A stretch of 56,357 nucleotides of DNA, counting the filler, from Sluysia triapertura (taxonomy: Eukaryota): assembly GCA_046118255.1 (NCBI GenBank). It is 4 parts of 4 records of this genome, joined end to end, with 100 filler letters (N's around TTAATTAATTAA, not from the genome) between each part and the next. Parts side by side here need not be neighbours in the genome. Positions count along the whole stretch, not along the records: positions 22,867 to 44,696 come from JBJNIA010242880.1; positions 44,797 to 56,357 come from JBJNIA010183413.1; 2 more parts are not named here. One strand, 5' to 3'. The notes under the pieces were generated by a model. That model was not told the DNA's origin. It did no database searches and was given only the letters and a program-made list of their open reading frames with translations. This document shows, one piece after another, positions 11,239 to 56,357 of the stretch. The number at the start of each line of letters is the position of its first letter. The stretch's first letter is position 1. Made by a program: the position numbers and the translations under genes.

Positions 11239-11321
11239 TACAATAATAATTAATAATAATAAGTAATTCAATCTACAGTAATAAATTCAATAACAATAAT
11301 TAATAGTAGTAGTTATTCAGC

Positions 11322-22689: not shown

Positions 22690-22982
22690 TGTTGGGGCAA
22701 AAGGCCTAAAAAGTGCCAAGTAGTATAATTGAATATATTAAAAATGAAATTGTTAGACGGGGCTGANNNNNNNNNNNNNNNNNNNNNNNNNNNNNNNNNN
22801 NNNNNNNNNNTTAATTAATTAANNNNNNNNNNNNNNNNNNNNNNNNNNNNNNNNNNNNNNNNNNNNGAAATTATGGTGTGACTTAAATAGTTTATATTAT
22901 GTGAGAATTTTAGAACACTTAAATATATTTAATTATTTCTTTGTGTTTATATATGTAAGTCCTCTATGACACCGGGATTACA
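22690..22982 (+). mobile_element. LTR-like fragment(s) spanning an assembly gap
   Basis: Starts TGTTGGG and matches 27882-27954 (shared aaattgttagacggggctga). After the gap it ends with gtaagtcct...tgacaccgggatt, resembling the LTR end and PBS at 1-25. Confidence 0.5.
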
Positions 22983-27881: not shown

Positions 27882-27977
27882 TGTTGGGATACAGGCCTAA
27901 GGTGCCATTTGGTATGGTTGACTATAATAAAATAAAATTGTTAGACGGGGCTGATTGATCTAACAATTTCATCAACA
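27882..27977 (+). repeat. 96-bp TGTTG...CAACA element (mini solo-LTR-like) with internal hairpin
   Basis: Second copy of 22690-22766. Stem aaattgttaga/tctaacaattt at 27935-27969. No TSD visible. Confidence 0.55.
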
Positions 27978-28998: not shown

Positions 28999-29108
28999 AG
29001 AAAATAAAGGAAGAACAATATCATTTGTTATTAACTAAAATGACAAATTAATGAGTTAATTTGTGCAATATTTTCTATTTCAAGAAATAAAACCTGTTTT
29101 ATCTTCAG

Positions 29109-29749
29109 CATCAAACAATGCGGCACTGGCACTGCATATTTGAACAGAAGCCCTGAAATAATGTTGGATGAATACTCTTATTTGGAATCAGCTTCACGAT
29201 ACTCCATGCAACATCAAGAACCTCTTATATTGATGGTGTTTCACAGGCGGCCCCCTTGCGACTACAATCAAGGCATTTTGTGTGTAACACTATTGGACAT
29301 TCCACCTGAAAATGAAGATGACGGTGACGGTGATGATGGAGATGAGGAAGGAGACGATGACGGAGATGAAGATGAGTTGGAGGAGGATTTGGATGAGGAT
29401 ATGGAGTATGATTATGAGGAAGAGGAAGTTGGTGGTGGTGAAGATGAAGGCGATTATGGAGAAGACGAAGACAATGAAGTTGGAGAAGCTGGTGGTGGAG
29501 ATGCTGATGATGAAGATGATGAAAAAGACGTTACTGGAGGAAGATCTGAGGATGAATCTTCTAAGAAAACAAACAAAATCACAACAGCAACAAAACAAAG
29601 GCATCAGTGTTCTGCGATAAATTCATTTTCTGGTACTAGTTCTTATAATGTTTTGAATAAACCAATCAGAAGACGAATTGGGAAACAACTCGTTAAACGT
29701 GAAGCCGGTGAATCATTTACATCTCATTCAAATCGAGAGCAAAGTGAAA
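29109..29749 (+). CDS. Internal exon of an unknown protein with a long D/E/G acidic tract
   Basis: cttcag acceptor (29108), open frame IKQCGTGTAYLNRSPE...EDDGDGDDGDEE..., phase-1 donor (gttggt at 29750, or gtgaaa at 29744) compatible with the next exon. Confidence 0.75.
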
Positions 29750-31144
29750 GTTGGTTTTCGATATTAATGTGCTTAAATTTTGAAATCAAAGTAAAATGAA
29801 TATAAGTTATGCTGAACTATTGAGAATGTGCCTAACAAGAATGTGCCTATTGTCACAATTATCTCTAATGTATGTATATTCTTTATGTATATGTTAAGTT
29901 CAATACCGAATCTGCATTCTCTTTATGATCCTTATTCGGTACAGTGTTACAGTTCCATGTAATTAAAAGTTATATCTTTGGTTTCATTTAAAAGTTTAAG
30001 TACGATGTTTGTTCGGTCAACAACTCGCAGAATGCCTCATTCCATTCGAGGATCATTGATTATTTTTCAGTAATCATTATCATTGTTAAATATTTCTCTC
30101 AAAATACTTATAAAGCTCGAAATTTTTAATAAACTAAGCGTACCAATGAGCCAACAAGGTATCTTAAATTAGAACCAAACTTTATTCATAAATGCTGTTT
30201 TAAATTTGCTAAATAGAATATTTAATATAACTCGAAATGGTTCGGTATTCATTTGATTAATTCTACTCAACAAAATGTTTAATATAAATTTAAATCATTC
30301 ATACTTAAATTCAGAAGCAAAGACATGTGCTTCTAAATTATTTTGGGTGCCTAAACCAAAGTAAAAAACAAAATAACCAACTGTAACTTATTTTTATAAC
30401 ATTTATAACAAAGAAAAAATCTAATAACAATAATGAAGAGATGTGCGATTTTATTTTAATATCATGATTATATCATAAATTTTCTGGATCTCAACATATC
30501 TGCCAATTGATTTTCAACTGTTTATTTTTAATGGTTTTAATGGAGGAGGACTGTCAAAAATGTCTCAAATGTACTACCTAATATCCATCATTTTCTTTAA
30601 CTAAAACTCTTAAATATAAATTTCTATACAACCTGAGAATTGTTCAATTACTATAAAGGGTGTGTTTTGTTGTTTGCTTGAAGTTATCACAGATTAGTAC
30701 AACTCATAATTTGAGTCTCATCAACCTTTCGGTAAAGCTATATCAACTACTTTTTTCCATACTTACTTTATATCCGGAATTTGATATGTACCATGTTTAT
30801 CTTAGATATATCTTACTCTGCGCGAAAATTAATGCTCTTCAGATCAATGGAACTTAAAGTTAAATAGATAAATCCAGTTATTCTCATGGTGACATAAGTA
30901 CCAAACAGTATAACATATTTAGCATTTTTCATTATGCTGAATTGGTGCATTATCTCATTAGTACGTTCTAAGTTGTGCAATTTAACATAACCTACTTCTA
31001 CTCAAATTGAATAAAGAGCTTCTCGAATATTGCTGGACACTGATTGAATTCGTAAACTTGCGACTATCCATTGCATTGTTTTCATCAAATAAATATATCA
31101 AACATTTTATTTGACCCAATAAAATTAATTTGAAGCTATTTTAG

Positions 31145-32071: not shown

Positions 32072-32896
32072 TCGTAAAATCCCGTGTATAAGCCGTGGGA
32101 TTTTAAACTAAATTTTTTTAAAAGAAAATTTAAATAATGTATTCAAAACCACTAAAATCCTCATCAAAACTCGAGCAATCTGAATGTTTGGGTAACTCTT
32201 CTAAACTTTCTTCAACTTCTTTATGATTTAAGTCTTCTCGACATAAAATACTTGACCTATAAAATCCAGCCCTTGATTCTCCTATCCAATTACAAATTAA
32301 ACCATAAGAGGCTTACTTTAAAATGATCTATTAACTGAGATATGGAATGGTTGTAAAATCTTGGTTGACTCATCATACATCACTACTAATCTGGAAACAG
32401 ATTTAATTTATTTTTGACATCTCCAGTTAAATGGGCCTTTGCTGAATCAACTATTAACATTGATAACGGATCGGTCTTTTTCAAACTTCATGTACCCATT
32501 CCATCGTGATTTTACTATCGATCCAACATTTGGAAATTACTTGAACAACTATTCCTCTCGGAAAACTTCTTTCAAACATTATTAATGGTGGTGATTTATT
32601 GCCATCAGCAGAAACACATAGAACAACAGTAAAGTGAGTTTTTTCATGCCTTGTTGAAATTCTGACTGATTTCACACCTTTTGATTCGACAGGAGGTGAA
32701 AACAACAAAAAATAACTTTAGTTTGTGAAAAATGAAGTCTAACATAGGTTTTAAATAAAGATTTAATAGAGGGTGTGACCTATATAAAGTTAAAAAGAAT
32801 CATTAAACTAACTTATATAAATGTGTGTCTAAATGATGCTAAAAATGAAATATTTGTTTCCATGGATAAGCAGAGGCTTATGCATGGGATTATAGG
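32072..32896 (-). mobile_element. Internally deleted pogo/Tigger-family element in an intron
   Basis: DDE_1-type VESKGVKSVRISTRHEKTHFTVVLCVSADGNKSPPLIMF. TIRs tcgtaaaatcccgtgtataagcc / ggcttatgcatgggattatagg, with TA on both flanks. Confidence 0.9.
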
Positions 32897-32979
32897 TATC
32901 AAAGTGGTGTCAAGTTTTACATCATCATGTTTCATTAATTTCAAATTTTAATCGGTCATATATCTCAGTTTTTATTTAG

Positions 32980-33126
32980 ATGAAAACTGAAGATATCGAT
33001 AGCACGGATCTTTCGTTATCAAAACATTTGGTCAACAAGGATTCTTTTTATACACATTGGCACAACACCATCGTTTCGTGTATCACAAATATATTTCCGC
33101 AATCCAATAAAGAGCGACTATTACAG
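32980..33126 (+). CDS. Third visible exon of the same unknown gene
   Basis: tatttag acceptor, phase 0, MKTEDIDSTDLSLSKHLVNKDSFYTHWHNTIVSCITNIFPQSNKERLLQ, donor CAG|gttatt. Confidence 0.7.
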
Positions 33127-35042
33127 GTTATTATTTATTATTATCTGAACAGAAAATAATAATAATTTACGGAACTAAACTAGACATGATAACAAACACC
33201 CTCCACCAAGAACTAGATTATGTAGATGAATTGTATTTGTGTATTAATATTGATCCGATCTTTAAATTGAATGGGGTGAATGGTTTTGATTTGCGTCTTT
33301 TCGTGATTTCTTTGGTATAATTATTCAAAATCTAAATACAGGTTGTCAGACAACCTGTCATAAATTCTTAAAAGTGTGATAAATCACGATACTTGCACCG
33401 TTATTAAGACAAGAATAATCTATTTGTTCATAGTAAAATATAACAATAAGAATTGTGACTCGCAATATTTTATTTCCATGGTTAAAGTGTCATATTTGTA
33501 GAAATTGTGGTGTGGAAGAATTATAAAACGACAAATTTTATTTTAATGATTTTTGACTGTACATTAAATATTAGTTCATTTAATTCTATTGGGTATGTTT
33601 GAAAGTGTGTTATTTTGATCCTTGACTCACCACCACGTATAGAAATTTTATTTGTTTTATACCCTTTTTTAATTTAACAACAATGAATTTTTCGAGTCCT
33701 CAATAACAGTGACCTCTTATCCAATATTGGAGTATAGACAATATGCAAAATAGCAAATGTTGTAGAATATCTTTAGTCGCATAAATTAAATTATTAACCA
33801 CTAATATTAAATATCTAAAAGTTTTATCCAATGAATAAATCTCATTTTTGGTTTCTTGTTTTATTTTTCTTCAAGTACTTTTACTAAATTTAACTTTAAT
33901 TATATTATGGGCAATTAATTTTTAGGTCCTTTGAGGGATGCTGTATTGTTTATTCGTATTAATTTATTTATTAATTTTAATTTAGTTTTAATTTTAAAAG
34001 ATTTGAAGCCGGCTTAATAAAGCCTGGTCAATTATCCATTTATAAACAAAAAACACAAATATAACAAAGATATCTTAATGTTCTTCTAATTGTTCTGAAA
34101 TGGCTTCCATTAAAATTGATCGTGGAATGTCACTAGATGTATTTTTAAATAAATAAACAGTTTCTTGAAAATTAATTAAACGTTGACTATACGATTTAGT
34201 CAACAGAAATTTTAAGTGCTTCTAAAATACGCAGTTTAATAAGAACAGTTGAATCTACTTCACAATGTGATATTTGCACAATAACACATTTAATAATTCC
34301 TATTAATTCAACGTTTGATATTTTCTGTGAAGTAAAATTTAATGATTCGTGCTTCGACGACTGTAAAATTTTTAATAATAACATTATATTATTATAACTA
34401 TTAAATTCACGCGTTATTTATCTCGTGGCACGATTTAACACAATGATGACAAACTAAATCGTCTTTACCATTATGGTAATAATAATAATTATTATATGAT
34501 AATAATAACAATTTTAATAATAATATGATATTTTAGTCTATATCCATGTATAATTGATGAAATATGCATTGTTAACATATTGTGACAGTTATTGTGAATA
34601 TGTACTGAATTTACGTTGCAATGTCATGTGAAGATTGTTTGTGTTTTATGCATGTTATTTGTTGATTTGATATTTTGTGTTAGACTGTGTTGATGTTCGT
34701 CTATAATTGTGTTTATGATAAATATATTTTGGCTTTGAACTCACCACACTATTCTATAGTTAATTTTTCTTTATACAACTTATTTTTGAGTTGTATGTAT
34801 AGTGCTATCAAATCTATGTATTAAAGTATCCCCCTACTCGTCCAGGATTAAGGTCAACAATTGTGACATTTAAATTTTTCTATAAATTAAATTAGGCCTA
34901 AATCCATAAATTAATTTAAGGAAATTGTCACAACATTTAATAAATTAGTGGTGCAACCAAACGTATGTTGATCATTTAGTCCGCACAAAACAGTAAATAA
35001 AAATAAAAATCCTACTATAAATCGAATAAAAAGAAACAACAC

Positions 35043-35043
<1 letters not shown>

Positions 35044-35086
<43 letters not shown>

Positions 35087-35100
35087 TAATAATAATAATA
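35044..35100. repeat. (AAT)n microsatellite
   Basis: Directly visible; it generates the poly-Ile shadow ORF 34911-35135. Confidence 0.95.
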
Positions 35101-35999
35101 CACGATAAGAAAGTGATATCATGCCCAAGTAACAATCATAACAAAGAGGATGGCAGCAATGATGTTTATTTTATTTCTTGATTGAAAGCAAGAAGTGTGT
35201 GTGTGCCAGTGTTTAAGGAGGTGAAAAAGTGAGAATGAGTGCTGTTACAGTGGAAGGTATGCTATAATTTTGAGTTTAGATTGATATTGGTAATTGTTGG
35301 TATGTTTGAATGTAAAATGCGTCATTTTGGGGTTGACATCATCGCACTTATGCTGTGGTTGACTGTGAACTGGGTTTGCAAAATAAACTAACTATGGGTT
35401 CGGCTTCTAATGTTAGGTAGGCCCATACATAACTGTCAAAAATAAAATAATTTAGTGGAAGAAAAAAAATTCTAACTATTATTTGTATGTGCTGCGCTAG
35501 TACTGACTCGATTGTAAATGCATGTTGTAAGTACTGCAGATAAACAGATATACAAACGACAGTAATTATTATTTGTATTAAACGAATAGTATGACACTAA
35601 TATTTATCAAAATATAAACTGTCAAGAAATACAAACAAAATATTAAAAGATTGTTTTTGATTTGTCTTCAAACATGAGTTTTTGATTATAAATTTCTTAT
35701 CAAATCGAAATAAATATAATACAAGAGAATATATCTTGGGGTTTTGTGTGGAAAATGGAAAAATTTATTAAATAAACTAACAATTTATTTACCTATACAA
35801 GTAGTGCTGCGATTAAGTAAAGTACTGTAATAAATCTAGATTGTATCGTGTCCAAATATAATTAAATTTCAATTCAATATAAATTCAACTTTAAACCAGT
35901 TTCAGAACGGCAAAAAATAAAAATAGAACTAGTATTTATATTAGTTTTTTCTTCATTTCGCTGATAAGTGTGATTAGAAAATAAATTCTCTGAAAAGTT

Positions 36000-38150
36000 A
36001 TTAATATTATTATAATGTCTGTTATTATTATTACAATTTTAATTGAGTACTTGGTAATTGGTGAATTGAGGACATTTTAAATTCGGCGGCTTTGAGGACG
36101 GCTATTTTTCAGGAAATAAAATAGCTTCTCTGTAGACGGTATCTTTTTCTTCGTCCGATGAATCCATATAAATATATGTTTCTGAATCACTTTCTTATTC
36201 GGAATTATCAAAATATTCAATAACTTGATTGCTTGATGGTATTTCTTTTGCCGAAAATTGGCAAAACCTTTTGGAATAATTACCTCTTCGTCTCAGCTCT
36301 AAAGCATCTAAAACATGCAATAGTGACAATTTATAATAAACAAACGTTCAAGTTCTTATCGGTTCTAACAAGATCGATGAGGGTCTTGACCATAATTCGA
36401 AGTAAAATGTTTATCAGACAGTTTAAATTTTTTTGAATCAAATTTTGCAAAATTATGTACTTTCAATATTACCTATTTTTAACACTTAGCTGTTAATCTC
36501 TTACAATATCCCTCAAAACATCTTTGGTAAGACACGTTTCATGAGAGTAATATTTGTGTATTTATTTGCAGTACCTGAAAGAAACTCACATGACTGGCCA
36601 GATGTGTCCCAGTTTCGAAGAAGGTCAGAATCTAATTGCGCAATACGAATCCAATAAAATCAGTTGGTCTGTTGGATCCAATAGTATCTTTTGTCATCAT
36701 CAATCATTAATTAATATGAATAATATAATGGTTAGTTTTGTTTGCATCTTTACTACAAGATATCTTTAGCATTGAACAACTCAATAGAAACTTGAATGAT
36801 AACTGTGTTCCCGACTAAAACGTTGTTATTTAAAAATACTCAGCAGCATAGATAATTAAAATATGAATAAACAATTTTAACGTATTCGCATGGAGTTATT
36901 TCACCATTCGGTTAATAATGCAATTTCTGAGTCAAAAGCCTTTTTCTTTTGATATATACACCCTGTTTTAATTAGGACACCCTCTATTAAACACAAATTA
37001 ACAATACTTTTTAATAAATAAAACACGAATAAAATATTACTTATTTATAGTTCCCAATTTTAGCACACTCTTAATTACTATATTGCATTTAGTTAAATAA
37101 ATTTCATTTCAAAAGTATAATAGGACACATTATACAAACTTTTTAAGAGACTACAACGTATTTTATAAAATTAGTATTTTATTGATCCTGTGTTTTTCAA
37201 TACCTCTACACACCTTATTGTCATCGAATTAATCAATGTATTTACACTTTTTATTTCAATCTTTTTCCAAGCATCCAATATTGCATTTTTTAACTCAAAA
37301 AAGGAGAAAGTAATGCAAGTATAGCCAAAAAGTTAAACAGATCAAGACATGCGATATCCAATTAAATGGGCCGCCTTAAAGAACTTTCCAATCGCAGAAA
37401 AGGAGTTTGAAATACAACATTGTCTACAACTCGCATAATGTCAGATTTAGAGCTAAACTACAGTAAAACAAATGTATGGAGAATATTAAAAAATAGTGAT
37501 GAGGTCGAATTCATTAAAATACTTGCTAAACCCCCACTCTCTGATGCTAATAAAATAACAAGAATTAACTTTGCCGAAAATCATTAATAACCACATTGAC
37601 TGGACCAAGATAATATTCTCAGATTAGAAGACATTTAATTTGGATGATCCTGATGGTTATAAATACTATTAGCATCATCTAAAGGATTTAAAAGAAATAT
37701 TTTCTAATAGAATTTGTGGTGGATGATTAGTTATGGTATGGGGTGCCATAATTTATAATAAAAAGCTAGCTTTACGTGTGGTTCCATCAACTCTTAATGG
37801 TGATAAGTACTATGAATTGATAAAAGAAGTAGTAGATCCAGAAAATATCAATGTCATCTTTCATCAGGATAATGTTCCTTGTCATCGATCAAAAACTACA
37901 CTTAATAAGTTCAGTGAAGATTGATTAAAAGTTTATTTTTCTGATGTTCATTTATAAGTTATCGAAATAATTGGAAACAGCTGAATAACTTATCATTGCT
38001 ATTCAAAAAGCGATATCAAAAATAAAAATAAAATAAACTGCGGTATCATGATTTTCATACCATGTTCGTTGACTTAGTGCTTGCATCTGAATAATTTACT
38101 GCTTCCTCAATTTTCAACGTTCGCCGATTGACTATTTTTACTTAATAAAG
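36000..38150 (-). pseudogene. Decayed intronless ORF of unknown identity, interrupted by the Tc3-like element
   Basis: Coding-like, more GC-rich minus-strand stretches with stops (e.g. RIAQLDSDLLRNWDTSGQSCEFLSG; IVNRRTLKIEEAVNYSDAST) on both sides of the transposon. No family recognised. Confidence 0.3.
36957..37925. mobile_element. Tc3-like (Tc1 family) transposon remnant with internal inversion
   Basis: Plus strand WTKIIFSD*KTFNLDDPDG, MVWGAI, FHQDNVPCH (37300-37924). Minus-strand C-terminus ELKNAILDAWKKIEIKSVNTLINSM (~37220-37296). Probable terminus near 36957. Confidence 0.88.
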
Positions 38151-40802
38151 GACTTCAAAAATTCGTGCTAAAATAATTGACAAAAAAGTATAATTATTTA
38201 GTTTATAATAATTAATAATGATAATATTTAGATACGTAATAAGTTGGTGTCGCAAATTCGGAAGAATCGGTTTAATAATTTCAACGAAAAGTGGTATCAG
38301 AATCAATTGAAACTGGGAAATATCGATCTGAATAATCGCTCTAGTTTATTTTATGGACAGGAAAAATTTTCTACAGATTCTGAAGTGGTCAGAACTGGCC
38401 CGTGCCACAGTGTCGTCTCTGACGTAACTTCCATGTGACAGCACTATTCATATCACAAGTTTTATTTCAAATAATTTGCATTCATACATACACACTCGCT
38501 TTCAATTTTGACAACGTGTTCTTTAATTAGAACTTATCGGTAATCCATTATTTTCGACCTTTACAGACCACATTATTACTTTGCGGAAAATCTACTTGAT
38601 CTCTATTTCATAAATGGTTTCTTATTGTTGTATGAAGTTCTTTATTTTCACAATTATTCAGTTCTAATACTGTCTCTCGTTTTTCCGTTTCCTCTAATCA
38701 TGATGCTGTTTCTGGTTATTCTTCGGAATGTGACTTATTCTGATAATTTATATATAATATTAGTTTGTTTCTTGTGGTTTTATTATTAATATTACTATTA
38801 TCATGACACAATTACGAATATTTGTGCAGCTGTGGCTATTGTGCACTTGTAACTAATTGTAAATTTATATATTATTATTATTATTATCATTATCATTATT
38901 ATTATTATACATTAATAGAGACTTGGAGATATTTTTTGTTTTGAATAATATGTCTTATTTTGAATAATTTCATTCTGGAAATATTTCCTCTTACTATGCT
39001 CTCCAATCAGAATTTATACCATGTTATTAATAATAATAAATAATGCTTTTATGATTAAATCTATAATAATACAAAATAACAAATAATATAATAATAGTAT
39101 TTGTATTCTATTCTGTATAAAGAGTGACAACATTGCAATTACTTTGAATAAAACTTCGAAATAATTTATCAATTAAAAAAGACGCCTAAACATCTTAAAG
39201 AAGTATATTGGCTTCCCAATTATAGTAGTGGTATTCGAAATATTTACGGAAATGGTGCATTTATCTAGTCGAAATAAAAAATGTGATAATAAGATCGACA
39301 ACCAATTATCATAGAATGTTAAGAAAGTTACTTGAAGGTTATGAAATATTCAAGAAAACACTTATAATAATAAATATTAGTGCTACATGAATTAATTTAT
39401 TAATAATTTTAGTGTTGTCATTTAAATTTATCAAAATCTAAAAGGCTAACATAATAATAGGACAATAGTAATAATGATCTATAATAATGCATACAATAAT
39501 AATTAATGATAATGTTAAACAAACAAGAAACATAGTTAAATAATATGAAAATAATTTTATAAAAGGCACCTAGGACTTTATTATACGTGACAGTGAGTAC
39601 ATTTGCAGCAGTATATATTCGGTAAGACCGTGTTAATTCGTTATTAATTAAACAATTATTTTTGAATTATTTCTAAAATGGTTATAATTACGAAAAACTT
39701 GAGTAAAAATTTTGGGTAGACAGAGTTAATTATTCGACGAAAGTTGTTACGCATCCAGATACAATTACCTTTAAAAATTAAGTCACGTTAATCTTTTTGA
39801 TTTGACAATTAAAATCATTTTTAACTAAATTTTTGATTTAAAGTAATTATCTAATTTGAATCTTATTGAATAGTAGTTCTTCACCTTTAAATTGTAATCA
39901 TAAACATCTCTTGAAGGACTTTTAAATAAGTCAATAAAATAATAGATCAATTTATATTGTTACAATTTGTATTATTTGTTTTTCACGTCTTATTTTAAAT
40001 AACGACAAAATACGTTTGTATGTAAAGATTTTAATTTTATATTAAACTAAGTTTAACACAATTTTAGACTCTTGTCTTGACTGTAGAGAGACTTTAATAA
40101 TTAATTTCTTGTTAAGTTATTCACATTAATATTATATTAAATTTGAGTAAGCTTGTAATCTCTGTAAACTTCGATACTACATTATTTAATTTAAAAAACT
40201 TTACCTTTTTTGTGGCGGCCCACATCATTATCAGTTGCTTCAGTGCATAAGATAAACATCAAACTATTAAACAACAAATTTACACCTCCAAAACTTTCCA
40301 CACGTTTTACATCTCATTACTTAAACTCCCAACGTAAAAAATTTATAATTAAACCAATATGCCACCAATCGTCGTATTGTCAAAAGTATTATTATTATTA
40401 ACGAATTTCAGAACTCAATTTTACTTTTGAAGTAAAAATTTGCAAATGTTTTTCTATTCTCTTGAGAAACATTATCTATTTATTATTGAATACAAAATTT
40501 TATAACACATTTTAATTTTTTGTGAATAATTTGGGGATTGATGATTTAGATGTTTCGAGGAGCAATACTCCTGACAACATGTTGTGGTTGTTTTGTATAT
40601 TGTACATGGTATAAAATAATGTTTTACGAAAAATTTTTGAAGTAAATAAATGATTTGAATGTGTGGTTTTGTAACTATGGTTCTCTTTGAGGGTTTATTA
40701 ATATTGTTATAAAATTCCAGAATTAAATTTATTATATGATGTACATATTTAATTGATGAGTTTGTTAAGAAGGTAAATGTTTCAAAGTTCGGTACGTGTT
40801 TA

Positions 40803-42282
40803 TTAAGAACAACTATAGTTATAGGTAGAATTGGATTTGAGATAATATATTCTTACAATTTTCATTGAGTGTGTTAATCTTTTGTTTATTATGATCTTAT
40901 AATTTTTCTTAATTCTTTCTTTGACGTAATATGAATTTAGTGGTACCTTAAAATTTATTTCAAAATTACTTACATCGTTTGGGCATGAATTTAGTATGTT
41001 AATATTAAAGTAATAAGCTATAATTAAACAACAACAATCATAAAGTTTTATTTTACAACTAAAAAGGTTAAATATGATTTTTAATTTAAAAACTGCTTTG
41101 ATAATGAATTTTGATTCCAAATTTCTAGCATCTGTTGTCCATCTTCTTTTTGTTGCATTTTTCGGACCCTACAGAACTGTTTGTTATCTAAATTATGATC
41201 ACATAAAATTAAAAACATAAAACTAACAAAATCGAATATAGTACATATTACTTTAACAAATTGGATCACTATACGTGTAATTTTATTTAACAATCTTACG
41301 TCTACGAAGTCACTTAGCTTAACCAAACCAAACAGAAATGGAACGTGATGTAGTATTGTGAATTGATAAACATAGTTTGTAGATCGTATCATCTTCTTCG
41401 TATATTTTAACCAAATTTTTAGTAGCGAGTATTTGTCTAGTACTAAAAGCATATTTTTGTTAATCAGAAAAGTATCTTCTGTAATTGTTTCAACTAAATT
41501 ATCGTATTCTATTCCGAGAAAGAGATTCATGGATATACTGTCGACAGTAATGTATCTTATTTCACGCCTATTCGTAATCACAGGGTTGATAGCTTCTGCA
41601 ATAACACTAATGTTTGACATCTGTTTGAGAAAATGAAAATTTAGTAGGACTCCTTCATAAATTATAGATAAAGAAAAATTTGTTGCAGTTGTGGTTAGAT
41701 TTATTTCAATAATGTTTAAAGCTGAATCGTTATAGCATCTTAAATCAATTGAAGATTCCAACGATAATCTAAAAACTAAAGAAAACAAAAATTGTTTTAG
41801 ATCTGATTTTATATATTGAATTCTTTTATCTTGAACTACTTTACAAGGATTTTTGGTATGTTTTATCATAAGACTAAATGAGAAATTATCTACTTCTGTA
41901 GTCATTAAATTTACGGCTAGACTAACTTTTCTCCATTCTTTACACTGGGAACATCGACACCAAATAAACAACGATTTATTAGAAATGAAATCATTAACCG
42001 AACTGTTATGATGTGACTTCGCAATCCATTCCTTTTTCGACTTCGTAACTTTCTGACACTGTATGTCAAAAATCAAAGATGGTGTTATTTTTCCGTACAA
42101 TTATTACAAATATGTTTACCATTTAAAAAATGATACCATTTTGGATTAGAATCAGAACATTCTTTGGTAAGATATAACAGACACATTGAATAGTTTGAAG
42201 AACATCTGTTTTCATTACATTGGTTAACTAATTTCTTTTTCATAAATTCTGCACCTTTGAAATTTCGAAGTAAATGATCCAT
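40803..42282 (-). pseudogene. KDM1B: Intronless KDM1B/LSD2-like N-terminal module (C4H2C2 zinc finger + zf-CW + probable degenerate SWIRM), no amine oxidase
   Basis: CNENRCSSNYSMC...EC...KWYHFLNGKHICNNC follows the remembered KDM1B C4H2C2 finger (RWYHLSCGEHFCNEC). KKEW...DFISNKSLFIWCRCSQCKEWRKV...NPCKVVQDKRI follows the CW finger. The two ORFs join if one base is added in the homopolymer run at ~42088-42092. No GxGxxG motif downstream. Confidence 0.75.
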
Positions 42283-42483
42283 ACTAAGGTTTTTGGTAAA
42301 TGAAAATTGAAATTTTTATCCTTTTCTCGTTTTTTTAAACTTTTTGTCTGACTTTCTTTTTTAAAATTTGTTTTTATTGTATCTGGCCAAATTTCTTTGC
42401 TGTCTGAAAAATTTTTTTGACAGTAAAACTTCTAATTGTGTCTATATTTTCTGACTATTCTTAATTGATACTATTTTTGTTTG

Positions 42484-42730
42484 CCCAATCAGAGTATTTG
42501 TGAGAGCTGTGGATATGTATACTCTGATTGGGTGCTGAATAAAATTAATTAAAAGTTGATTTTAAATTACTGACCGTCATCAGTAGTGTCACTCGAATGA
42601 CATTTTTTAATGGCGTTGGAAGTACTGATGACGGCAGCAACTATTTTAGTTAAATTAGAGAAAAATATAAAAATTAAAGTTTAATTAACAATAGTAATAA
42701 CAACAGCAATAATAATAATAACAACAATAA
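42484..42730. repeat. Hairpin/CCAAT block, copy B
   Basis: Inverted repeats CCCAATCAGAGTAT (42484-42497)/ATACTCTGATTGGG (42519-42532) and CCGTCATCAGTA (42574-42585)/TACTGATGACGG (42623-42634), then AAT/AAC microsatellite. Confidence 0.75.
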
Positions 42731-42870
42731 GATTACTGTTATTATTATTATTGTTAAGAAACAAAAAAATGGCATAAATCTTTGTAAAATCTTTATAAAA
42801 TCTTTAACACGATCTTATTCTGTCGAATTCTTCTATTCTACATATAAATGAAAAAATAAAAACAAAACAA

Positions 42871-42944
42871 TGTCGTATTGTGAAGGAACAACAATAACTA
42901 AGTATATAATGTATCATTTGTGGTTGTTGCTTCACAGTATGATA
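42871..42944 (+). ncRNA. Pre-miRNA-like hairpin (candidate)
   Basis: 27-position unbulged stem: 21 Watson-Crick, 4 G-U, 2 mismatches; 20-nt loop. Confidence 0.3.
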
Positions 42945-45349
42945 ATGAAACCTTTAAAGTTATCTTAAATCTGTTTTTGAGAGATGTAATGATTTAGGTT
43001 GTAAGTGAAATGAAGAATGTTAGAATGATTTATTGAAACTTGTTGAAGATTTATAATTTGAAAACAAGATTTATGCGTTGGATAGAATGGTTTGAAATGC
43101 TTAATGAAAGGTTGAAGTTATTTTAATTTGAATGACGATTACAAAATAAATCTTAGTATATTATAATGCCATTACGAGTAATTGTTGATATTGAATATGT
43201 GTATATGAAATGGGTTTAAGTTGATGTAGTTGATTGAAGGTTTTGATGTAAATGATCTATGTTTCTGAGGTATTTGTTAGGGTTGTTGAATAATGCTATT
43301 GTGCTTATAGTTTGTATACTTTGTTTTGTGATTGTGGTTTGGTTGTTGAAATATCTTGTGAATGAGTGTTGTAAATTATTCGAGATTAAATATCAGAGTT
43401 TGTTATTTTATAGGTGGTTGAAATATTAGTTGAATTGTTGATGTGTGAGTTGATGAGGTGTTGTGATTATCGAATGTTATTTTATGATGTTTGCGTTGGT
43501 GTAGTTCATAGTAAAAAGTGTGATTATTTTGAAAGTTGAATTTTAGTGAAATTTAATTTGTGAATAATGAACAAGGAATTTTGACTAATTTTTTGAGTTA
43601 TGAGTGTTGGTCACTACAATAATACTAACCTCCTGATTCTCTCAAGTTATTAGCAAAAGATCTAGAATAAAACTAAAATAAATAATTATTAAGATCTGTT
43701 AATACTAAATTGATATAAAAACAACTTATGAAACATAAAAACTTATGATTATAAAAATACGACAGTGGAGTTCTACGATATATTACAAAAATTAACATTA
43801 TTATTTCCAAGAAATTAAGGTTAACGTCAGAGTTTACAAATTTTTTTGAAAACATTAAAGCATTCCATATATAAGGCGACAAAGCAATTGTAGCAATTCT
43901 TATTAACAGATACCAAACTAGCTTAAGAAGATTTAGTCAATTGATTCCTAAACGACAAGATATTTAGAGCATTTTATTAGTAGTTCTTGGTCATTATTAA
44001 CGAATAATTTTGGTTATCCGTGATCAATCGTAAGTTAATTGATCATAAGTTAATTTTTTTAACTGAAAAATAAATTATAGACTTAGTCTTATTAAAATTT
44101 ATTCTAGGTTAATCTAGATATAATAATATTAATTTAACATTTATAAAAAAATTTAGAAATTTTAATAACAATATTTTACAACTTGACAATTATAATTTTT
44201 CTAAAAGACCAATATCTTTTGATTGTTCATTGTATAGAATTTTGCTTAAAGGTTATAAAGATAGTCAATTGACTCAGTAAGTTATGATGCGATGGTATCA
44301 TACAAATGAAATGCTATGCCTGACACAGTGCAACAATAAGATAGATTTACTGTCTTGTGGAGGCATTATTTCGTAACTGTACATTAGAAAGCTAGTATTT
44401 TACGGTACAGAAGTAATTTGTTAATTACAAGAAATTATTATCAAGTTAGAAAGTCCTACTAAGAGATGCAGCAAAGATGTATTGCCTCCAAGTATAAATA
44501 AGTATAAATGAAGCTGCTTTTAAAACTCTAAAGAAATCTGCAGAAATGTTTCGAATACAAAAGTGCATGTTAGATGTTGAAATACTGACGATATTTGTGG
44601 TAATAATCAAGCTCAAAATATGATCTATTATCGAGGACTTTTCACTACTTAATGATTTTATTGATCTAGCACATATTTATAAACTACTAAATTGGTNNNN
44701 NNNNNNNNNNNNNNNNNNNNNNNNNNNNNNNNNNNNNNNNTTAATTAATTAANNNNNNNNNNNNNNNNNNNNNNNNNNNNNNNNNNNNNNNNNNNNTATT
44801 AATCGGAACATTCATGAATCTTTTTTTCGAAACGCAAAGCTAGATCTTTTATAAAGAGAAATTAGAGCTGCAATAAAAATCATCAATAAGGTGCATCAAT
44901 TTTTCATTATTGAATCTGTCTTTTTTGTTGCGATATGAATTAATTTATTTAATCTAATACTGTGGTACAAATTTTTCGCACATTGAAAACGAAGATGATG
45001 GAGAATAATACTATTTAGTAAACAGCTTATAATCAAATGTTTTAATAATATAACATCGACTGAAAGAGGAGATACTAATTTTAATTTCTTTAAAATTGGA
45101 TTAACAATCTAGAAATAATTGTCACCAATTCTTGAATACGAGAAATACAATGTTTTACAATTTCCAATTGAGATTAAACAATTTTAGCAAAATTATCTTC
45201 AAATTCTTTGGAAAAACAAATTCCGAAAATGAAATTAAAATAATCATGATTTTATTAAATAAAAATTGATAAATTTCTGATTGTTTTTATAGTATATAAT
45301 AAATTATTAACCTAAATGTACCAAAAGTACCATAAAAAGTTGAAATTGT

Positions 45350-45700
45350 CGTCATAAAATGATAAAGTAACCTAAGAAATAACAACAAAAATTTCGAGAA
45401 AATCACGAAATTACAGTTTGTAAGGAGTGTTTACGAAACCATTTTGATGTCATATTGTTTGCATTAATGGATAACAAACATCAAAGAAAATAAAAGCGAG
45501 ACACAATTACGTGCAACAACTTTTGGAGTACCAGGAAAATAACACACCTATATAATTTATATGGATGAGACCTACTTCAATTTACTTATAACAAGAAAGA
45601 AAGGAGTTGCCACACAAGTGCTTCTGCTGGATGCAAAAGAGGAAATTTACATGTTATTGGTCAAGTTTATAAACTGATATTAAATGAAATCTAGCCACTC
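45350..45700 (+). mobile_element. Decayed IS630/Tc1/mariner-superfamily transposase fragment
   Basis: First catalytic motif YIIYMDETYFNL at ~45550-45585; surrounding frames are broken. Confidence 0.4.
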
Positions 45701-45749
45701 AAATACAATAAATTTTAACCAATGAAGTCAATATTACAAAGTGAAATTG

Positions 45750-48550
45750 CTTAATCTCAATTTGAATAAAATCATTAAATTATTGGACTGCAAAAGATTG
45801 ATTTAGATCCTGACCTGCGAAATTTCGAATCGCATAATTTAATACCGACTGCTTTATCCAAACCATCGAGCTTGACCACAACTTGCTGTTACCCGATTCG
45901 ATTTGACTTGGTTGTTGCTGGTCAACAAACTAAATAATTTTAAAGTTCATTGTTTTAAAGGTATATTGTTCTTTCGTATCTTGAAATGTCTCCAGTTCAT
46001 CTTGATAAATTTCATCATTTTAAATTTAATTGAAGCCAAAGTTTCCCAGGTTTTCACTCTAATTTTGATAATTTTGGCGATTCAGGATCTGAAGCCATAT
46101 GATCAATCTAGTAAAAAAACTTAAAGTAAAATTATTGTCATTGTGGAGGGCATTAAATAATTTAATTTATTTAAATAATTATTATTTTTGTGTTTTTTTA
46201 ATTTTTTATTAAAAAAGTTTAAAACACTAATTAAGTAAAGACAATTTAACTTTAATTTAAAAACTTTTAACAAAATATGATTAAGGCCTGTCAAAATTAA
46301 CAAATTAAAATCAGTAACAAAGTTTAATATTTTGTTAGAAATAAAAGATAACAAGTGAAGAACAGATACAGACATACTGAATGATAAAACAGCTCTATTC
46401 GTAAATGAACATCCATAAATATGACATGAAATTGTATCAAAATAAATAATACATGATAGAAACGCTATACGAACTGAATTAGTATCTTTATAAAATAACT
46501 GCATTTGAAAATAGTCCCATAATAGAAATGAATACATTAAATTTAATACAGTATAAAATATTACAGAATTGTTTAATATCTTACACCTATGTAAAAAATT
46601 TCTCTGGAATTTGAGAATTAATACAATCAGTTTTTGATTTACATCCAAATTTACAACCAATTTCACCATTTTGTGGATTTCCTAACAAATAATCTCCAAT
46701 ACATTTTCGATAAACTTTTAAATTTTCATCGTATGCATAACGTGGTTTTACAGATCTAATTGATCTCTCATAAGCGGTATAATAAAATTTGTTTTAATAT
46801 TCTCAAAATTAATATCCCTTCGCATAATTTCAGAATAATGAAAATGAATTTTTGGAATACCTGAAATATCGAGTATTATGTTTTCATCTTTCATATATGA
46901 TTCATGTTTACATAACTTTTGCTTATTAATATAGCAAGTTATAAAATATAATAAGCAGAAATTAACAGCAATTGCAATTAGCATGGTTTACAAATCTGAT
47001 TATATTTTTTGGTAAATTTATATCTTTTATTATTAATATTATCAAATGCTCGAAATCTGTCATTATTGGACCTTACTGGCTTGAATGAACCTTCAGACGT
47101 ATGATCATCATAATCATATTCCCATTATCAATTTCTTCATTTGATGAAGTACAACGATGACTATGTGAATGGACGATGACGGTCATTAAATTTTGAATCT
47201 CTTTGATGTCGATTATATTTCGCTGATAAGTATTCGTATGGTTTAAATCGATATTTTTTTGATATCATTAACTGGATGTCGATTTTGTTTGTAACATTTA
47301 TCGTAATAAGGATTGTTTTGATTTTCATTGTTTTTAATTTCATTTTACTTTATAACCCTATATTTTCATGAGTGTGATGCTTTTTTTGGTTGACTTTTTT
47401 TTTGTTAACTAAATCATTTGCTAATAAATCTTTACAACGACCTCCAATTCATCAAGCACATGATTTTTAAATCCTGTAGATCATTGGTGGATTCCATTAT
47501 ATGTTTAATTCTTTCCATTTATGATGGGCGGCTGGGTGATGTATTTTCATATATTATAATTGTCAGAGGTACAAATTTTGGAAATTTTTGATACTAAAAT
47601 TTGTCGATAAAGGGGATTTAATAATCATTTGATTTCATACATATAACACGATTAATGTGATATGTAGCACGATTAAGATTCTGCTTCATTTTTTTAAATT
47701 TCTTAAATGGTTTACATTTGCCTCAAAAAGGTGAAATTTTCCTTGGAGCACTTTTTCTTTTCGTAACTCTCCATGGTGACACAGAGTAACAGTGACGTTG
47801 ATTAAGAAAGCGACTTGTACATGATCGAATTTTTCTAGGTATGCTACATCTCCGCCACGAACACGACAAATCACAATCACTTGAAACAGCTCTTCATAGA
47901 TTGATTGCACTATCACGAAAACGGGGAATATTTCATTTATTCATATAATATGCTCCCGAACTTCCTGAAGCCATTGTTAATTTATTTTCTGTACAAAATG
48001 TTAATTTCGGTGATATTCCCTTGATATGGCTTAACCGGTGTAAGTGTGTTACTACTAGAACAAGAATTTTTGGATGAACTAGATAAAGAATTCTTTTCGA
48101 ATGCATTTGTTGAATAATATTCATTGGACGAAATTTTTTTTGATAATTTTGATCCAAGCGTTTTCGTACGTGTTAAAATGAAAATGGTACTGTGATAAAC
48201 ATTTCCATTTTTATGGATTCTATATCATCTTTAATAACTTACGTACGATACTTCGTGAATATTAGAATAGACTTTTAGCAGTTGAAATACTTTTATCGGT
48301 CACTGAAGAAGTTGATCTAGACGAAGTAGTAGTTGTTGTAGTGGTTTTAACTGATGAAAATATCTCTTCAATCGATTTATCACTATTTTTATCTGTTGTG
48401 CCTTTAGATGTCGAAATTTCCTTTTGAATTGATAATACTTCCGGTTTTCTGAGTTAATATTAATTGTTCCTTGTTCTTTTGAATAAGACAATTCATCAAC
48501 AATAATCTCTTCAATTTTACTGGCTTCAGATTCAGTTTTCGAATGTTTTT
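45750..48550 (-). pseudogene. Decayed intronless ORF region(s) of unknown identity, with a Cys-rich patch
   Basis: Chain of minus-strand ORF fragments (48491-48300, 48157-47933, 47916-47686, 47343-47161, 46984-46748, 46669-46121). An alternative frame reads GCKFGCKSKTDCINSQ at ~46610-46658. Confidence 0.35.
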
Positions 48551-50037
48551 ACTATTATGTGAGACAGTTCGATTGAAATGTTGGAGTTGTTAAAAGATCA
48601 AATTATATAACAGATACTAAATATATACTTTATAGATTGACACTTATATAAATATATATAAAATGGAAAAAATGAAATGATAAGAAGAAAGATTGATAAT
48701 AAGGATAAAAGAAATAATAATGATAACAATAACGTAGTTATTATGTTTATTTATACTGAATTGTTGATCTTGATATGAAATTTTATTATGAAATTTATTA
48801 TTTGATAATCATATTATATAACAATGACAATAATTATTATATGCATATTGTTTAATACGATTTAAATTGTAATAATAATAGCTGTAGTTCGTGATAATTA
48901 TGCGCGATGATTTTGATTGTTTTTTGAATGAGTTTATTAGTTTGTTTAATGATCTGTGTACATGTGAAATGTTTTTATGTGTTGAAGTGTGATGAAGTCA
49001 TAATTTATCCTAATCATAAAATATCTGAAACAGAAGCGATTAAATTTTTGTAAAACTGAAAAAGACTAATATAACTTTTAATTTTAGCATAATAAGTAGG
49101 CTCATATTGAATAAAGAATCTGTTAGATTGTATTCTCTTTCTACATAAGTGATTTGGTTAACATGATTCACACGTTATATGCAACATAGAGTAACGAATC
49201 TACATAGTTAAATATGATTTGCATAGATTATTTCTACTTATTTATTTTGATTATACAGTACTGGAATATATTTAAGATTGTAAGACTTTCTTACAAATTT
49301 TCCATTTTCCAAAGTCCATTATAAATTGATAGTATATTCTATTGTGTTTATAGTTAATTAAAGATAACCTTTGAACTAATACGTTATAAAATTTAATTCA
49401 TATATTTTATTAATAGTGTGAGGTTATAAAAATAATATAAAATATTATACATTTTTTATTTTATTAGCAAGTTTCTTAATAATTTCAAATTTGGCTTTTC
49501 CAAAATAACAATTTACTTTTTCCGATGAGTCTTACATTACGTGGCAGTAAATACCTAGAGACTACTTTTAGATAATATAAATTCTACGACATACCAGTAG
49601 TAAGGAAATGTGAAAACTAAATAATTACACAACAAAGTAAAACTAATTATCAATGTACAACGTTTGTTTGCATTTGTTTAAATGTTTAAAATAAGAATTA
49701 AGAGCTAAATTTTTAATTAATATTAATTTTCAATTAATAAGTATAGTATTATTTTGTAGGTTTTTGTTAGTCTCTTTTAGTGTGTGCAATTCAAAATGAA
49801 TGAAACTACGAAAACATGTTTGATTAAGTTATTCTCGATTGAAAAATTAAAAACACATATGTATATCACTCAAAATCCACAAAAATAAATAATAAATAAA
49901 AATAAATTATTAAATTAAAAATTTTTAATAATGTGTAAGTTATGTGAACCTTAAATTAACAAATAAAACATTAAGAAACTTAATTAAAATTACAATATCC
50001 AAAATCAAAATTATTATTATTTCAATTTGTCATCTAG

Positions 50038-51454: not shown

Positions 51455-52400
51455 AATTGATTATCAAGTCGTCACGGATGAAATGCGTAGAAAAAAGGCA
51501 AAGTTGGTTGATAACCTACAAATTTAAAGAATTGTTTTATTCATCAAAGTATGTATGCATCCATAATATATATACAATTTTGCCACATAAGCGGCAGGTT
51601 GTTCAGGCTAGTGGTATAAAACCGTGGATGAGAGTCAGTGAATTATACTGTAATGTCGGAATTAAATTGTTTTCCTATTGTCCAACTTACGGAAGAAGTG
51701 GTAGTCATTGGGACTAAGTCTAGTGGGTATGGAGGATGATGAAGTTTCATCTCGAATGCCTGTAGTTTTGTCACATTCGTTTGTGCAGTATTCTAATGTT
51801 ATCATGAAATATGGTAGGATTTGATCTGTTACTCATTAAGATTTTGCATCGTTCGTCCAATCTGTTACAGTATATTTCTGGTGTGATCATACCTAAACTC
51901 ACCATCAGCTTCTTTTGATAAATATTGTTCTTTGGAGTATTTTGATTCATCCTTTTCTAACGATTGTGCTGAAAAGTAATTGAATCCATTTTTCATCACA
52001 AGAGATAATTCGATTCGAAAATGGGTTAGACTTTTGATAAGAAAGCTTCCAAACGTTTTTGTTTCTGTTTTTCATTCAGTTCACACAGAACCACTTATCC
52101 AACCTTTTCACTTAAGTAATGCGAGCTAAATGAGAATATTGTGTATTTGCAACACCAAACTTTAACGATAATTCGTACGCACTCTAAGATGGATTTTACT
52201 CAGCGGTGACCTTTAATTCATCATTATTGACCGATGATTCGAGTAACCGCGTAGATCATTTGTGAAGTCAAACTTTGGCAAACAAATTTGATACTGTTTT
52301 CTGCGCAATAACACTAGAGTCAAATATGCTATTAATGTTTCACGGGTTCTGCATGAACTCACTTCGACAAAATTAATTAATTAATATTTCAATGATTTCC
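51455..52400 (-). mobile_element. Decayed mariner (DD34D) transposon
   Basis: Minus strand RLDKW (~52100), NRIISCDEKWI (~52000), IFHDN (~51805), HPPYPLDL..DYHFFRKLDN (~51680-51740), LPLMWQNC, YFDE* (~51540). Confidence 0.9.
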
Positions 52401-54620: not shown

Positions 54621-56284
54621 AAATAAATATAGTCATCCGTTTTATTATAAACAATTATTCAATTTATTTCCTAAATATTATGATTTTCAATTAAATAAAA
54701 TTAATACTTTTAATAGAATTAATACTTTTAATAATACAAAATTTCTTTAAAAAATTTAATATTTCTAATTTATTATATACAAAAAATTTTTCTAATATTT
54801 TCTTGCTAAGATTATATTATTTTATTTACATTTACAATGGTGTAGGAAATAATTCTATTCTAGTTATATTCGAGTACGTTTCTTGTATTTTGAAAAAATA
54901 ATAAATTATAAAATGATTTATTTATATTTTGTTATAACTTTTGTAAAAACCAATTTGATATTATAGGCACAATATGGAATAATTAGAAAATAATTATAAT
55001 AATCAGTTTATAAGCGAATAATTTGTTTAAATAGGCTAAGATCGAAAGAAATAGCAGCAAAAGTAAAAAACCAAAGAGAAACAAATTATCATCGAGACAG
55101 ATCACAGAAGATAACAGATTCCGCAGAAGTCAAAAGGCAAATTGTACAAGAGTATCGGAACTCAGCGAATAAAAATATAATGAATAATAAAATATATTGT
55201 TGTAAAATATTAATATTATCATTGTTTAAGTCGAGACAAAATCTTGAATTTTTTTAAAAATTTTAAAAATAAATTTATGAATATTGTAGAAAAAATGGAA
55301 TAAATTAAGATAATAAATGACTTTCAAGAGTATATAGATAATAAAATTAAAAAGTAATAAAAAATAATAATACGACTAATTATAATAAAATAATAAATAG
55401 TAAAAAATCAATATTTAATAAAGATGATTTAAAGTAATATTTAACATTCATTGAGCAACAAATAATAATGATAAAAATAAACGTACATCTATGTTACATT
55501 GTTGTTATTATTGAAATTATATTTAAAATTTTAGATGAATCGATGCGTGTTTGTGGTTTAGTGACACATTTAATGAAATCTAAGCTGCCAATTTACTTAT
55601 TCATAATCTACTAAGATTAATACTGTGACCATCTACAATTCACAGAATACGATTGGATAGGACTATATTGTTGGACTGATCGACGATCATGATACATTCT
55701 GCTTTTTGAATTTTAGTAAGTTTAGACATTATTAAACGGCAAAATCCATTTAAAATATTACCAAACAGATGTTAAAAGATTTGTATTAAGTTTCTTATTA
55801 ATCTTTATTATCATCATCATCATCATCGTAAACACTATCGTCTGTTTCATTATCCAATCATCTTCATCAATCAGTTGCTCATAATATAATTACTTCTTTA
55901 TTCAATGAAATGAGGATTGGCATTGATATAATCAAATCATATTTGAATGAATTGTCAGAAAGGGAACCAATTTTTTTAATTAAATTTATGAGGTTAATAT
56001 AATAATAGTAGTAATAATGTTGCTATTATTGCTATTTTTATTATTAACATTGTTGATATTATTATGATTTGTGTCATTATGAGAATGATATAAGATATGA
56101 ATTCTCTTTTTATGAAATGATGTTATTTAATGATCTTAAAAAGAAAAACGTATGGATAATAAATGAATTTAATGAATTATAATCTGAGGCAGCTTTAATG
56201 TTCCAAAATGTGAAGTGCTTGAGTTTGTATATGATCTGCATATGAGTTTGTTTCTTAATACAAGGCTGTTATCGAATGGTTTAA

Positions 56285-56342
56285 CCCTTTGACTACCAAT
56301 GGGACGATGGGTCCCACAGAAACTATGTTCTACATCAATGGG
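56285..56342. mobile_element. 58-bp piggyBac-like miniature element
   Basis: TTAA|CCCTTTGA...TCAATGGG|TTAA, with internal hairpin tgggac/gtccca. Confidence 0.7.
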
Positions 56343-56357
56343 TTAAAAGTAGCTTTA

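What the first reader, a model, noticed from the sequence alone, without database searches (positions are those of the whole stretch)
33900..49000. Array of same-orientation units: decayed intronless ORF + conserved hairpin/microsatellite/GT-skewed block (candidate gene-capturing or retrocopy-expressing repeat system)
Seen: four times a coding-like, intronless, broken minus-strand ORF (~33950-34390, 36000-38150, 40800-42282, 45750-48550) has a non-coding block on its upstream (right) side (34400-35500, 38200-38900, 42480-43620, 48600-49000). The blocks share short motifs pairwise (ttgtg..agctgtgg.ta at 38822 and 42498; catgtgaa..tgttt at ~34625 and ~48961) and AAT-rich tracts; three have a C-poor G/T-rich tail. 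A related block at 10.9-11.1 kb lies downstream of another intronless host-gene copy. The ORFs look unrelated to each other and one is a recognisable host gene (KDM1B), whereas bona fide genes here have long introns. Inference: a non-autonomous family that carries or transcribes diverse host mRNA-derived cargo (LTR/TRIM-like transduction or Helentron/HINE-like capture).
Basis: partly seen in the sequence, partly recalled or inferred. Interest (0 to 1): 0.8.

Follow-up and report, generated by a model that had tools for sequence, protein, structure and literature searches.

The report
Repeat family carrying histone-reader fragment
The four "units" are mostly unrelated dead mobile elements lying side by side, but one of them belongs to a multi-copy, hairpin-ended repeat family that carries the histone-reading zinc fingers of a host chromatin enzyme, a plausible new case of a transposon taking up a host chromatin tool.

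Summary
The array is not one family. Three of four minus-strand ORFs are coding-derived, but half of unit 2 is a plus-strand Tc1-type transposase. The four blocks share little beyond AAT tracts and G/T skew. Contigs of one run give summed depths from about 25 (block 2, unit-2 ORF) to 72,000 (block-3 tail). That tail looks like a separate solo-LTR-like insertion (TGTA…TACA, 4-bp target duplication).

The real kernel is unit 3. Its ORF begins with KDM1B-type C4H2C2 and CW zinc fingers (combined E about 6e-4), with no detectable SWIRM or amine-oxidase domain. It is multi-copy (up to 11 variant contigs; tens to about 200 copies by depth), and other copies lack its two frameshifts. A double hairpin sits upstream and recurs at 11 kb with six double-sided changes; a worn relative lies at 38.8 kb. 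The ends resemble a DINE-1/HINE rolling-circle element, but only weakly (2 of 12 shuffles also give such ends).

Best reading: a transposon graveyard holding a defective element family that took up a chromatin-reader module. Capture of diverse cargo by one cassette is not shown.

The parts
42574..42634 (.). Hairpin 2 of block 3: 12-bp perfect arms, 37-nt loop
   Evidence: DNA fold z -6.4, 0 of 200 shuffles
42484..42532 (.). Hairpin 1 of block 3: 14-bp arms with inverted CCAATCAG, 21-nt loop; candidate 5' subTIR plus inverted repeat of a minus-strand element
   Evidence: z -6.0; depth 3119 at 42508, with both listed indels in the loop; layout compared with PMC4067079 passages
40806..42282 (-). 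Unit-3 ORF in three pieces (65 + 315 + about 112 codons); other copies carry one more base at each of the two breaks
   Evidence: table 4 (42087: 350 of 1095 depth, 4 contigs; 41143: 258 of 351, 3 contigs)
41819..42255 (-). KDM1B/LSD2-type C4H2C2 zinc finger followed by a CW zinc finger
   Evidence: colinear PDB hits to KDM1B from two frames (combined E about 6e-4); Pfam zf-CW E 0.094; Atlas CW clusters 0.80, a lead only
39002..39013 (-). Third copy of the hairpin-1 arm; candidate 3' subTIR
   Evidence: weak and post hoc
38977..38988 (.). 12-bp palindrome 13 nt beyond the candidate 3' subTIR; candidate 3' stem-loop
38808..38864 (.).
   Evidence: 0 of 100 shuffles; best of 4409 windows, z 4.9 against 4.2 for the next; fold z -0.3; unique contig 37903-38857
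10935..11077 (.). Second copy of the double hairpin, followed by an AAT tract but no G/T tail
   Evidence: all 24 pairs kept in both copies, 6 double-sided changes
42910..43618 (.). Very high-copy G/T-rich repeat, TGTA...TACA with ATAA on both sides; solo-LTR-like, probably an independent insertion
   Evidence: depth 72,000-74,000, 36-94 contigs per variant site; only candidate (chance 8% with wide bounds, 1% with narrow); not stop-poor
34474..34700 (.). High-copy G/T-rich piece of block 1; perhaps a distant relative of the block-3 tail; bounds approximate
   Evidence: bin depth 6689; 2 of 100 shuffles against the block-3 tail
33950..34390 (-). Unit-1 ORF, coding-derived, unidentified, modestly multi-copy
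   Evidence: 1 of 40; bin depth 395; no Pfam hit
37000..37990 (+).
   Evidence: depth 28,000-41,000
36000..37000 (-). Rest of unit 2: single-copy, coding status unproven, unidentified
   Evidence: depth 24 in 36300-36699
45750..48550 (-). Unit-4 ORF(s), coding-derived, unidentified; copy number not measured
   Evidence: 0 of 40; no useful hit

Best explanation
The region is a pile of independent dead mobile elements in an AT-rich animal genome, not four copies of one cassette. One real family sits in it (unit 3): a minus-strand element that begins at a conserved double hairpin (about 42640/42540) and probably ends near 38950. It carries one intronless ORF of about 490 codons whose N-terminus was taken from the host gene KDM1B (C4H2C2 plus CW fingers) and whose remainder is unidentified.

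Shown: the hairpins, their second copy, the multi-copy state, the zinc-finger match and frame-intact relatives.

Inferred: (1) the hairpins are cis-acting ends for an enzyme supplied in trans, most likely a Helentron-type Rep/helicase (about 0.35 for this class); (2) the ORF was a working accessory gene of the family, since hairpin and fingers are shared by many more contigs than the spacer between them; (3) its product would tether to methylated H3K4, for targeting or to resist silencing. The G/T tail of block 3 is a later solo-LTR-like insertion beside the AAT tract.
For: Depth and contig counts: hairpin 1 3119; zinc-finger bin 3404; then 1411, 1076, 538, 368, 206 and 55 leftwards; spacer 113 from 1 contig; single-copy bins 24-54. 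Variant contigs per listed site in the ORF: 2, 7, 9 and 11. Insertions in other copies fall exactly at the two frame breaks. Double hairpin with compensatory changes. subTIR/IR/subTIR/palindrome layout as defined for DINE-1 and HINE. Lack of block homology. Tc1 in unit 2. Bounded tail with target duplication. Transposons recruiting chromatin readers, and Helitrons amplifying retrogenes, are documented (passages).
Against: The HINE-like 3' end arose in 2 of 12 shuffles, and hairpin 2 has no 3' partner. No Rep/helicase or other transposase was found in or beside unit 3. KDM1B proteins did not reach E 0.001 among 1.84 billion representatives; the single hit was a tandem-repeat protein. Summed contig depth is not a copy number, the run may be the source sample, and only 40 of 506 substitution rows and 12 of 57 indel rows were shown. 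The 11-kb/42.5-kb similarity is marginal by sequence alone (z 4.4 against 4.3 for the next; not found in the reverse search). The pair counts rest on two sequences and a structure derived from them.
Confidence: 0.5

Rival explanations
1. One reading: one non-autonomous cassette (hairpins, AAT, G/T tail) captures or transcribes many different intronless host ORFs and forms same-orientation arrays.
For: Three coding-derived ORFs on one strand. Hairpin-1 relative in block 2. Double hairpin at 11 kb beside different sequence. Weak tail-to-tail similarity: block 1 to block 3, 2 of 100; block 4 to 56 kb, 0 of 100.
Against: Depth spans about 25 to 72,000 across blocks. No masked block-block hit above the null. 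The DNA left of the 11-kb hairpins is not coding on the minus strand (37 of 40). The covariance model finds only its two training copies. The block 1/block 4 motif match is inverted and no better than background.
Confidence: 0.15
2. 42910-43618 is the LTR of an LTR retrotransposon whose internal region includes the hairpins (packaging signals) and the KDM1B-derived ORF, gained by template switching.
For: LTR-like ends; a high terminal to internal depth ratio is what solo LTRs give; the mechanism is described in animals (PMC5131818 abstract).
Against: The 4-bp duplication lies on both sides of the single repeat; no primer-binding or polypurine tract is visible at the junction by eye; there is no second LTR; the 11-kb hairpins have no such tail.
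Confidence: 0.13
3. Unit 3 is a dead member of an expanded host gene family of intronless CW-reader genes, and the hairpins are conserved promoter elements (inverted CCAAT boxes).
For: CCAAT density is about 30 per kb in both hairpin regions against 2 per kb overall; frame-intact relatives and a poorly shared spacer fit selection on a gene; no transposase was seen.
Against: Perfect 12-14-bp arms with compensatory changes are not needed for CCAAT boxes; the same hairpins occur at 11 kb without the ORF; the setting is dense in transposon relics.
Confidence: 0.14
4. A non-LTR or Penelope-like retroposon read on the plus strand ends in the stem-loops and AAT tail; the leftward fall in depth is 5' truncation and the ORF is antisense cargo.
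For: Smooth fall in depth away from the hairpins; stem-loops followed by a microsatellite.
Against: Depth drops to 113 between the hairpin and the ORF; no reverse-transcriptase hit; no Rfam match of note; only one loose CTGANGA..GAAA pattern and no hammerhead fold was shown.
Confidence: 0.08

Closest known systems
DINE-1/HINE, non-autonomous Helentrons (PMC4067079, passages read)
   Same: Arm plus inverted repeat 21 nt away at one end; a third arm copy and a short palindrome at the other; microsatellite nearby; gene-fragment capture is reported for Helentrons.
   Different: An extra, larger hairpin outside the candidate end; 3.6 kb with a long ORF; no partner RepHel seen; TT target and empty sites untested; 3' end statistically weak.
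Bat Helitrons that amplify host fragments and retrogenes (PMC4224331, passages read)
   Same: Host 5' gene parts amplified to tens or more copies, some frame-intact.
   Different: Canonical TC/CTRR ends were not seen by eye; parent gene and intron loss cannot be shown here.
Transposon-chromatin reader fusions, mostly PHD and Chromo (bioRxiv 10.1101/2021.11.30.470311, passages read)
   Same: An H3K4-methyl reader module in a multi-copy element.
KDM1B/LSD2 histone demethylase
   Same: N-terminal C4H2C2 and CW fingers in the same order and similar spacing.
   Different: No detectable SWIRM or amine-oxidase domain; multi-copy; very divergent.
LTR-mediated retrocopies and TRIM-like elements (PMC5131818, abstract read)
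   Same: Intronless host-derived ORF next to an LTR-like repeat.
   Different: Only one LTR-like repeat, with its own target duplication; the cargo is not flanked on both sides.

Membership tests
Helentron/HINE (DINE-1-like) | 5' subTIR of 11-15 bp with an inverted repeat 3-22 bp away | tested here: met
   14-bp arms 21 nt apart at 42484-42532
Helentron/HINE (DINE-1-like) | 3' subTIR followed by a short palindrome near the 3' end | tested here: inconclusive
   39002-39013 plus 38977-38988 fit, but 2 of 12 shuffles gave such a set
Helentron/HINE (DINE-1-like) | Insertion into TT or T-rich sites without target duplication, shown by empty sites | not testable with these tools
   no genome held
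Helentron/HINE (DINE-1-like) | Autonomous partner encoding Rep/helicase with the same ends | not testable with these tools
   no such domain in the scanned parts of the window; genome not held
LTR/TRIM transduction | Cargo flanked on both sides by direct terminal repeats | tested here: not met
   blocks not alike; only 86 of 13,522 contigs fit two places, at microsatellites
LTR/TRIM transduction | Primer-binding site and polypurine tract inside the LTRs | tested here: inconclusive
   none visible by eye next to 42910; no tRNA set of the organism is available
Solo LTR (42910-43618) | TG...CA ends, 4-6-bp target duplication, high copy number | tested here: met
   chance 1-8%
Solo LTR (42910-43618) | A full element with gag-pol between two such repeats | not testable with these tools
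   genome not held
KDM1B processed pseudogene | C4H2C2 and CW zinc fingers | tested here: met
KDM1B processed pseudogene | SWIRM and amine-oxidase domains downstream | tested here: not met
   no Pfam or PDB hit and no GxGxxG in three minus frames; decay could hide them
KDM1B processed pseudogene | Loss of introns relative to the parent gene | not testable with these tools
   parent gene not available
Penelope-like/Terminon | Hammerhead ribozyme in terminal repeats; PLE reverse transcriptase | tested here: not met
   Rfam: 2 chance-level hits only; no RT hit
Tc1/mariner (37000-37990) | HTH plus DDE transposase, high copy number | tested here: met
   both Pfam scores are below the curated cut-offs; no convincing TIR pair

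The most novel reading that the evidence does not exclude
A lineage-specific rolling-circle family uses a structurally conserved double-hairpin 5' cassette to carry and express different intronless host-derived ORFs, lands head to tail in arrays, and has kept the KDM1B C4H2C2+CW module under selection as an H3K4-methyl tether or anti-silencing factor.
Probability: 0.17. Interest if true: 0.72.

Novelty: new variant of a known kind. Interest (0 to 1): 0.42.

Why it matters
Transposons are known to recruit Chromo and PHD readers. A family that amplified and kept the LSD2-type zinc-finger pair, without the demethylase, would be a new reader type in that arms race. It is directly testable by binding to H3K4me peptides and by dN/dS across copies. 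Five literature searches listed no such case; I saw listings only, and most subscription journals are not covered. The four-unit "capture array" itself is mostly a by-product of nested relics in an AT-rich genome, which is ordinary.

Tried and rejected
No whole genome is held. One run holds the stretch; no RNA holder listed.

Unit-3 ORF: none of 1892 longer candidates scored; one spurious representative; 0 relatives among 142 metagenome and 20 viral pattern hits; single-sequence AlphaFold pLDDT 34, so no fold search was run. Recalled likenesses of its C-terminal half to SWIRM, P-element/THAP9 transposase or Helitron N-termini found no support. The Ac102 hit (E 0.3-0.5) is treated as noise.

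Block-3 tail as a LINE ORF2 end (recalled): no Pfam hit, none of 120 candidates, not stop-poor.

Unit 2 as a Rab-like GTPase (recalled motif): no hit. Unit 4 as a kinase: no hit. The 5.7-7.35 kb copy as PPP1R21 (recalled): coding-derived (0 of 40) but not confirmed.

The hairpin pattern has 0 matches in metagenome and viral contigs. No tRNA. AAT-like target duplications around the tail are low-complexity. Crypton was considered (PMC3212892 passages): no recombinase seen. An aconitase exon search gave at most 71% identity, so no close relative was among the 120 listed proteins and the lineage was not placed. Earlier scan findings: nothing in four answered look-ups by place, words and DNA plus one by protein.
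Full report
Setting. The window is about 25% GC. It holds spliced-looking animal genes: a cytosolic aconitase near 50-51 kb (best identity 71% among 120 listed) and a Hox-like exon at 19.7-20.3 kb (label recalled). It also holds many transposon relics. No genome is held, so copy numbers come from one run's contigs laid on 32700-44690 only.

The ORFs. A stop-density test against 40 shuffles supports coding origin on the minus strand for unit 1 (1 of 40), unit 3 (0 of 40) and unit 4 (0 of 40), but not for 36000-37000 (11 of 40) or 37000-38150 (19 of 40). The latter is a plus-strand Tc1/Tc3 transposase with summed depth 28,000-41,000. The units share no protein similarity beyond composition (top 20 of 247 cross-region hits shown). 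Units 1, 2 and 4 stayed unidentified.

Unit 3 and KDM1B. Two neighbouring pieces in different frames each hit KDM1B in the PDB, in order: the C4H2C2 finger (top hit, E 0.25) and the CW finger (second-ranked, E 0.8). Combined, this is about 6e-4 after correction. Pfam zf-CW gives E 0.094. Against this, KDM1B orthologues did not reach E 0.001 among 1.84 billion representatives. No SWIRM or amine-oxidase signal was found downstream. So this is the reader module of KDM1B on an unidentified body, not a recognisable whole gene. That CW fingers read H3K4 methylation is stated in an abstract listed (PMC9043364).

The blocks. Of 12 strand-wise comparisons among blocks 1-4, three beat all 100 local shuffles: block 1 with inverted block 2 (AAT only), block 1 with inverted block 4 (no better than background in a window-wide scan, z 3.8 against 3.6), and block 2 with block 3. 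After masking, no block pair appears in the top 25 self-hits. Only 3 of the window's 7 strong hairpins have stems of 12 bp or more: two in block 3 and one at 11 kb; three shuffles gave none that long. Candidate hairpins in blocks 1, 2 and 4 fold no better than shuffles.

The double hairpin. The 11-kb and 42.5-kb regions align as hairpin 1, spacer, hairpin 2, AAT tract. All 24 pairs are kept in both and 6 differ on both sides (7 of 500 shuffles). This rests on two sequences and a structure taken from them. By sequence alone the match is marginal, and a model built from the two finds no third copy. Block 2 holds a worn likeness of hairpin 1 (best of 4409 windows). The DNA left of the 11-kb hairpins is not coding on the minus strand (37 of 40) and is only faintly like unit 3 (3 of 100).

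Copy number. The tool warns that summed depth is no copy number, and the run may be the source sample, so I use it as an order of magnitude beside contig counts. Long near-identical contigs have depth 15-23. Block 2 (26), 35100-35899 (37-41) and 36300-36699 (24) are single-copy at 80%. The unit-1 bin has 395 and the left part of block 1 has 6689. The block-3 tail has 72,000-74,000 with 36-94 contigs per variant site. In unit 3, depth is 3119 at hairpin 1, 113 (one contig) in the spacer and 3404 over the zinc fingers, then falls stepwise to 55 at 39.5 kb; scaled, that is tens to about 200 copies. Other copies carry one more base at 42087 and at 41143, exactly the two frame breaks, so relatives have a longer open frame of about 490 codons. 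The four listed substitutions in the ORF all change an amino acid, as expected for a dead copy, but only 40 of 506 rows were shown.

The tail. 42910-43618 is the only TGT...ACA candidate with a target duplication (TGTA...TACA, ATAA); chance is 8% with wide bounds and 1% with narrower bounds chosen after seeing it. It is not coding. I read it as a solo-LTR-like insertion independent of unit 3, since the 11-kb hairpins lack it.

Mechanism. On the minus strand, hairpin 1 is an arm plus its inverse 21 nt on. A third arm copy lies 3.5 kb downstream, where the multi-copy region fades, and is followed by a 12-bp palindrome. This is the layout given for DINE-1 and HINE elements (PMC4067079, passages). 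The test is weak: 2 of 12 shuffles produced such a set, hairpin 2 has no partner, and no Rep/helicase is in view. I therefore call it a defective mobile family that works like a HINE with cargo, without filing it as one. Precedents: Helitrons amplify host fragments and retrogenes (PMC4224331, passages); transposons recruit chromatin readers (bioRxiv 10.1101/2021.11.30.470311, passages; its supplementary table of fusions was not seen and could hold CW cases); LTR elements make retrocopies (PMC5131818, abstract); cargo-carrying giant elements are reviewed in PMC6431247 (passages). PMC3212892 (passages) was read for Cryptons.

Verdict. What remains is a multi-copy, hairpin-ended family with a KDM1B-derived reader module: a new variant of a known kind, interest 0.42. 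The bolder reading, one cassette with diverse cargo in head-to-tail arrays, keeps about 0.17.

Noticed in passing
window 229-5130 (+): Decayed Gypsy-type LTR retrotransposon (gag-pol motifs recognised from recall), followed by further coding-like sequence of unknown kind.
   Followed up: no
window 5700-7350 (+): Coding-derived broken ORF (0 of 40 shuffles) whose C-terminus recalls PPP1R21; searches did not confirm this. It ends near a TTA tract.
   Followed up: partly
window 7500-9000 (-), 32100-32900 (-), 51640-52300 (-): Transposase-like relics (hAT-, pogo- and mariner-like by recalled motifs; no matching Pfam hit); depth 1271 at 32700-33099.
   Followed up: partly
window 48700-48975 and 55990-56250: Block 4 resembles a G/T-rich tract at 56 kb (0 of 100 shuffles); block 4 has its own TGTT...AACA candidate with a 4-bp duplication at 48918-49163 (chance level).
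   Followed up: partly
window 12646-12832 and 13608-13783: Diverged direct repeat, 66% over 187 bp.
   Followed up: no
window 20584-20614, 22690-22766, 27882-27954: Small repeat family ending in TTAGACGGGGCTGA, three copies in both orientations.
   Followed up: no
window 29044-29799 (+): Open 251-codon frame with a long acidic tract, no clear family.
   Followed up: partly
window 33338-33358: Isolated 10-bp-arm palindrome in near single-copy DNA left of unit 1.
   Followed up: no
window 11139-11239, 22767-22866, 44697-44796: Assembly gaps contain a TTAATTAATTAA spacer between N runs; adjacency across 44.7 kb, between block 3 and unit 4, is therefore not assured.
   Followed up: no
window 56282-56350: Short TTAACCC...GGGTTAA element, like a piggyBac-type remnant (recalled).
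   Followed up: no
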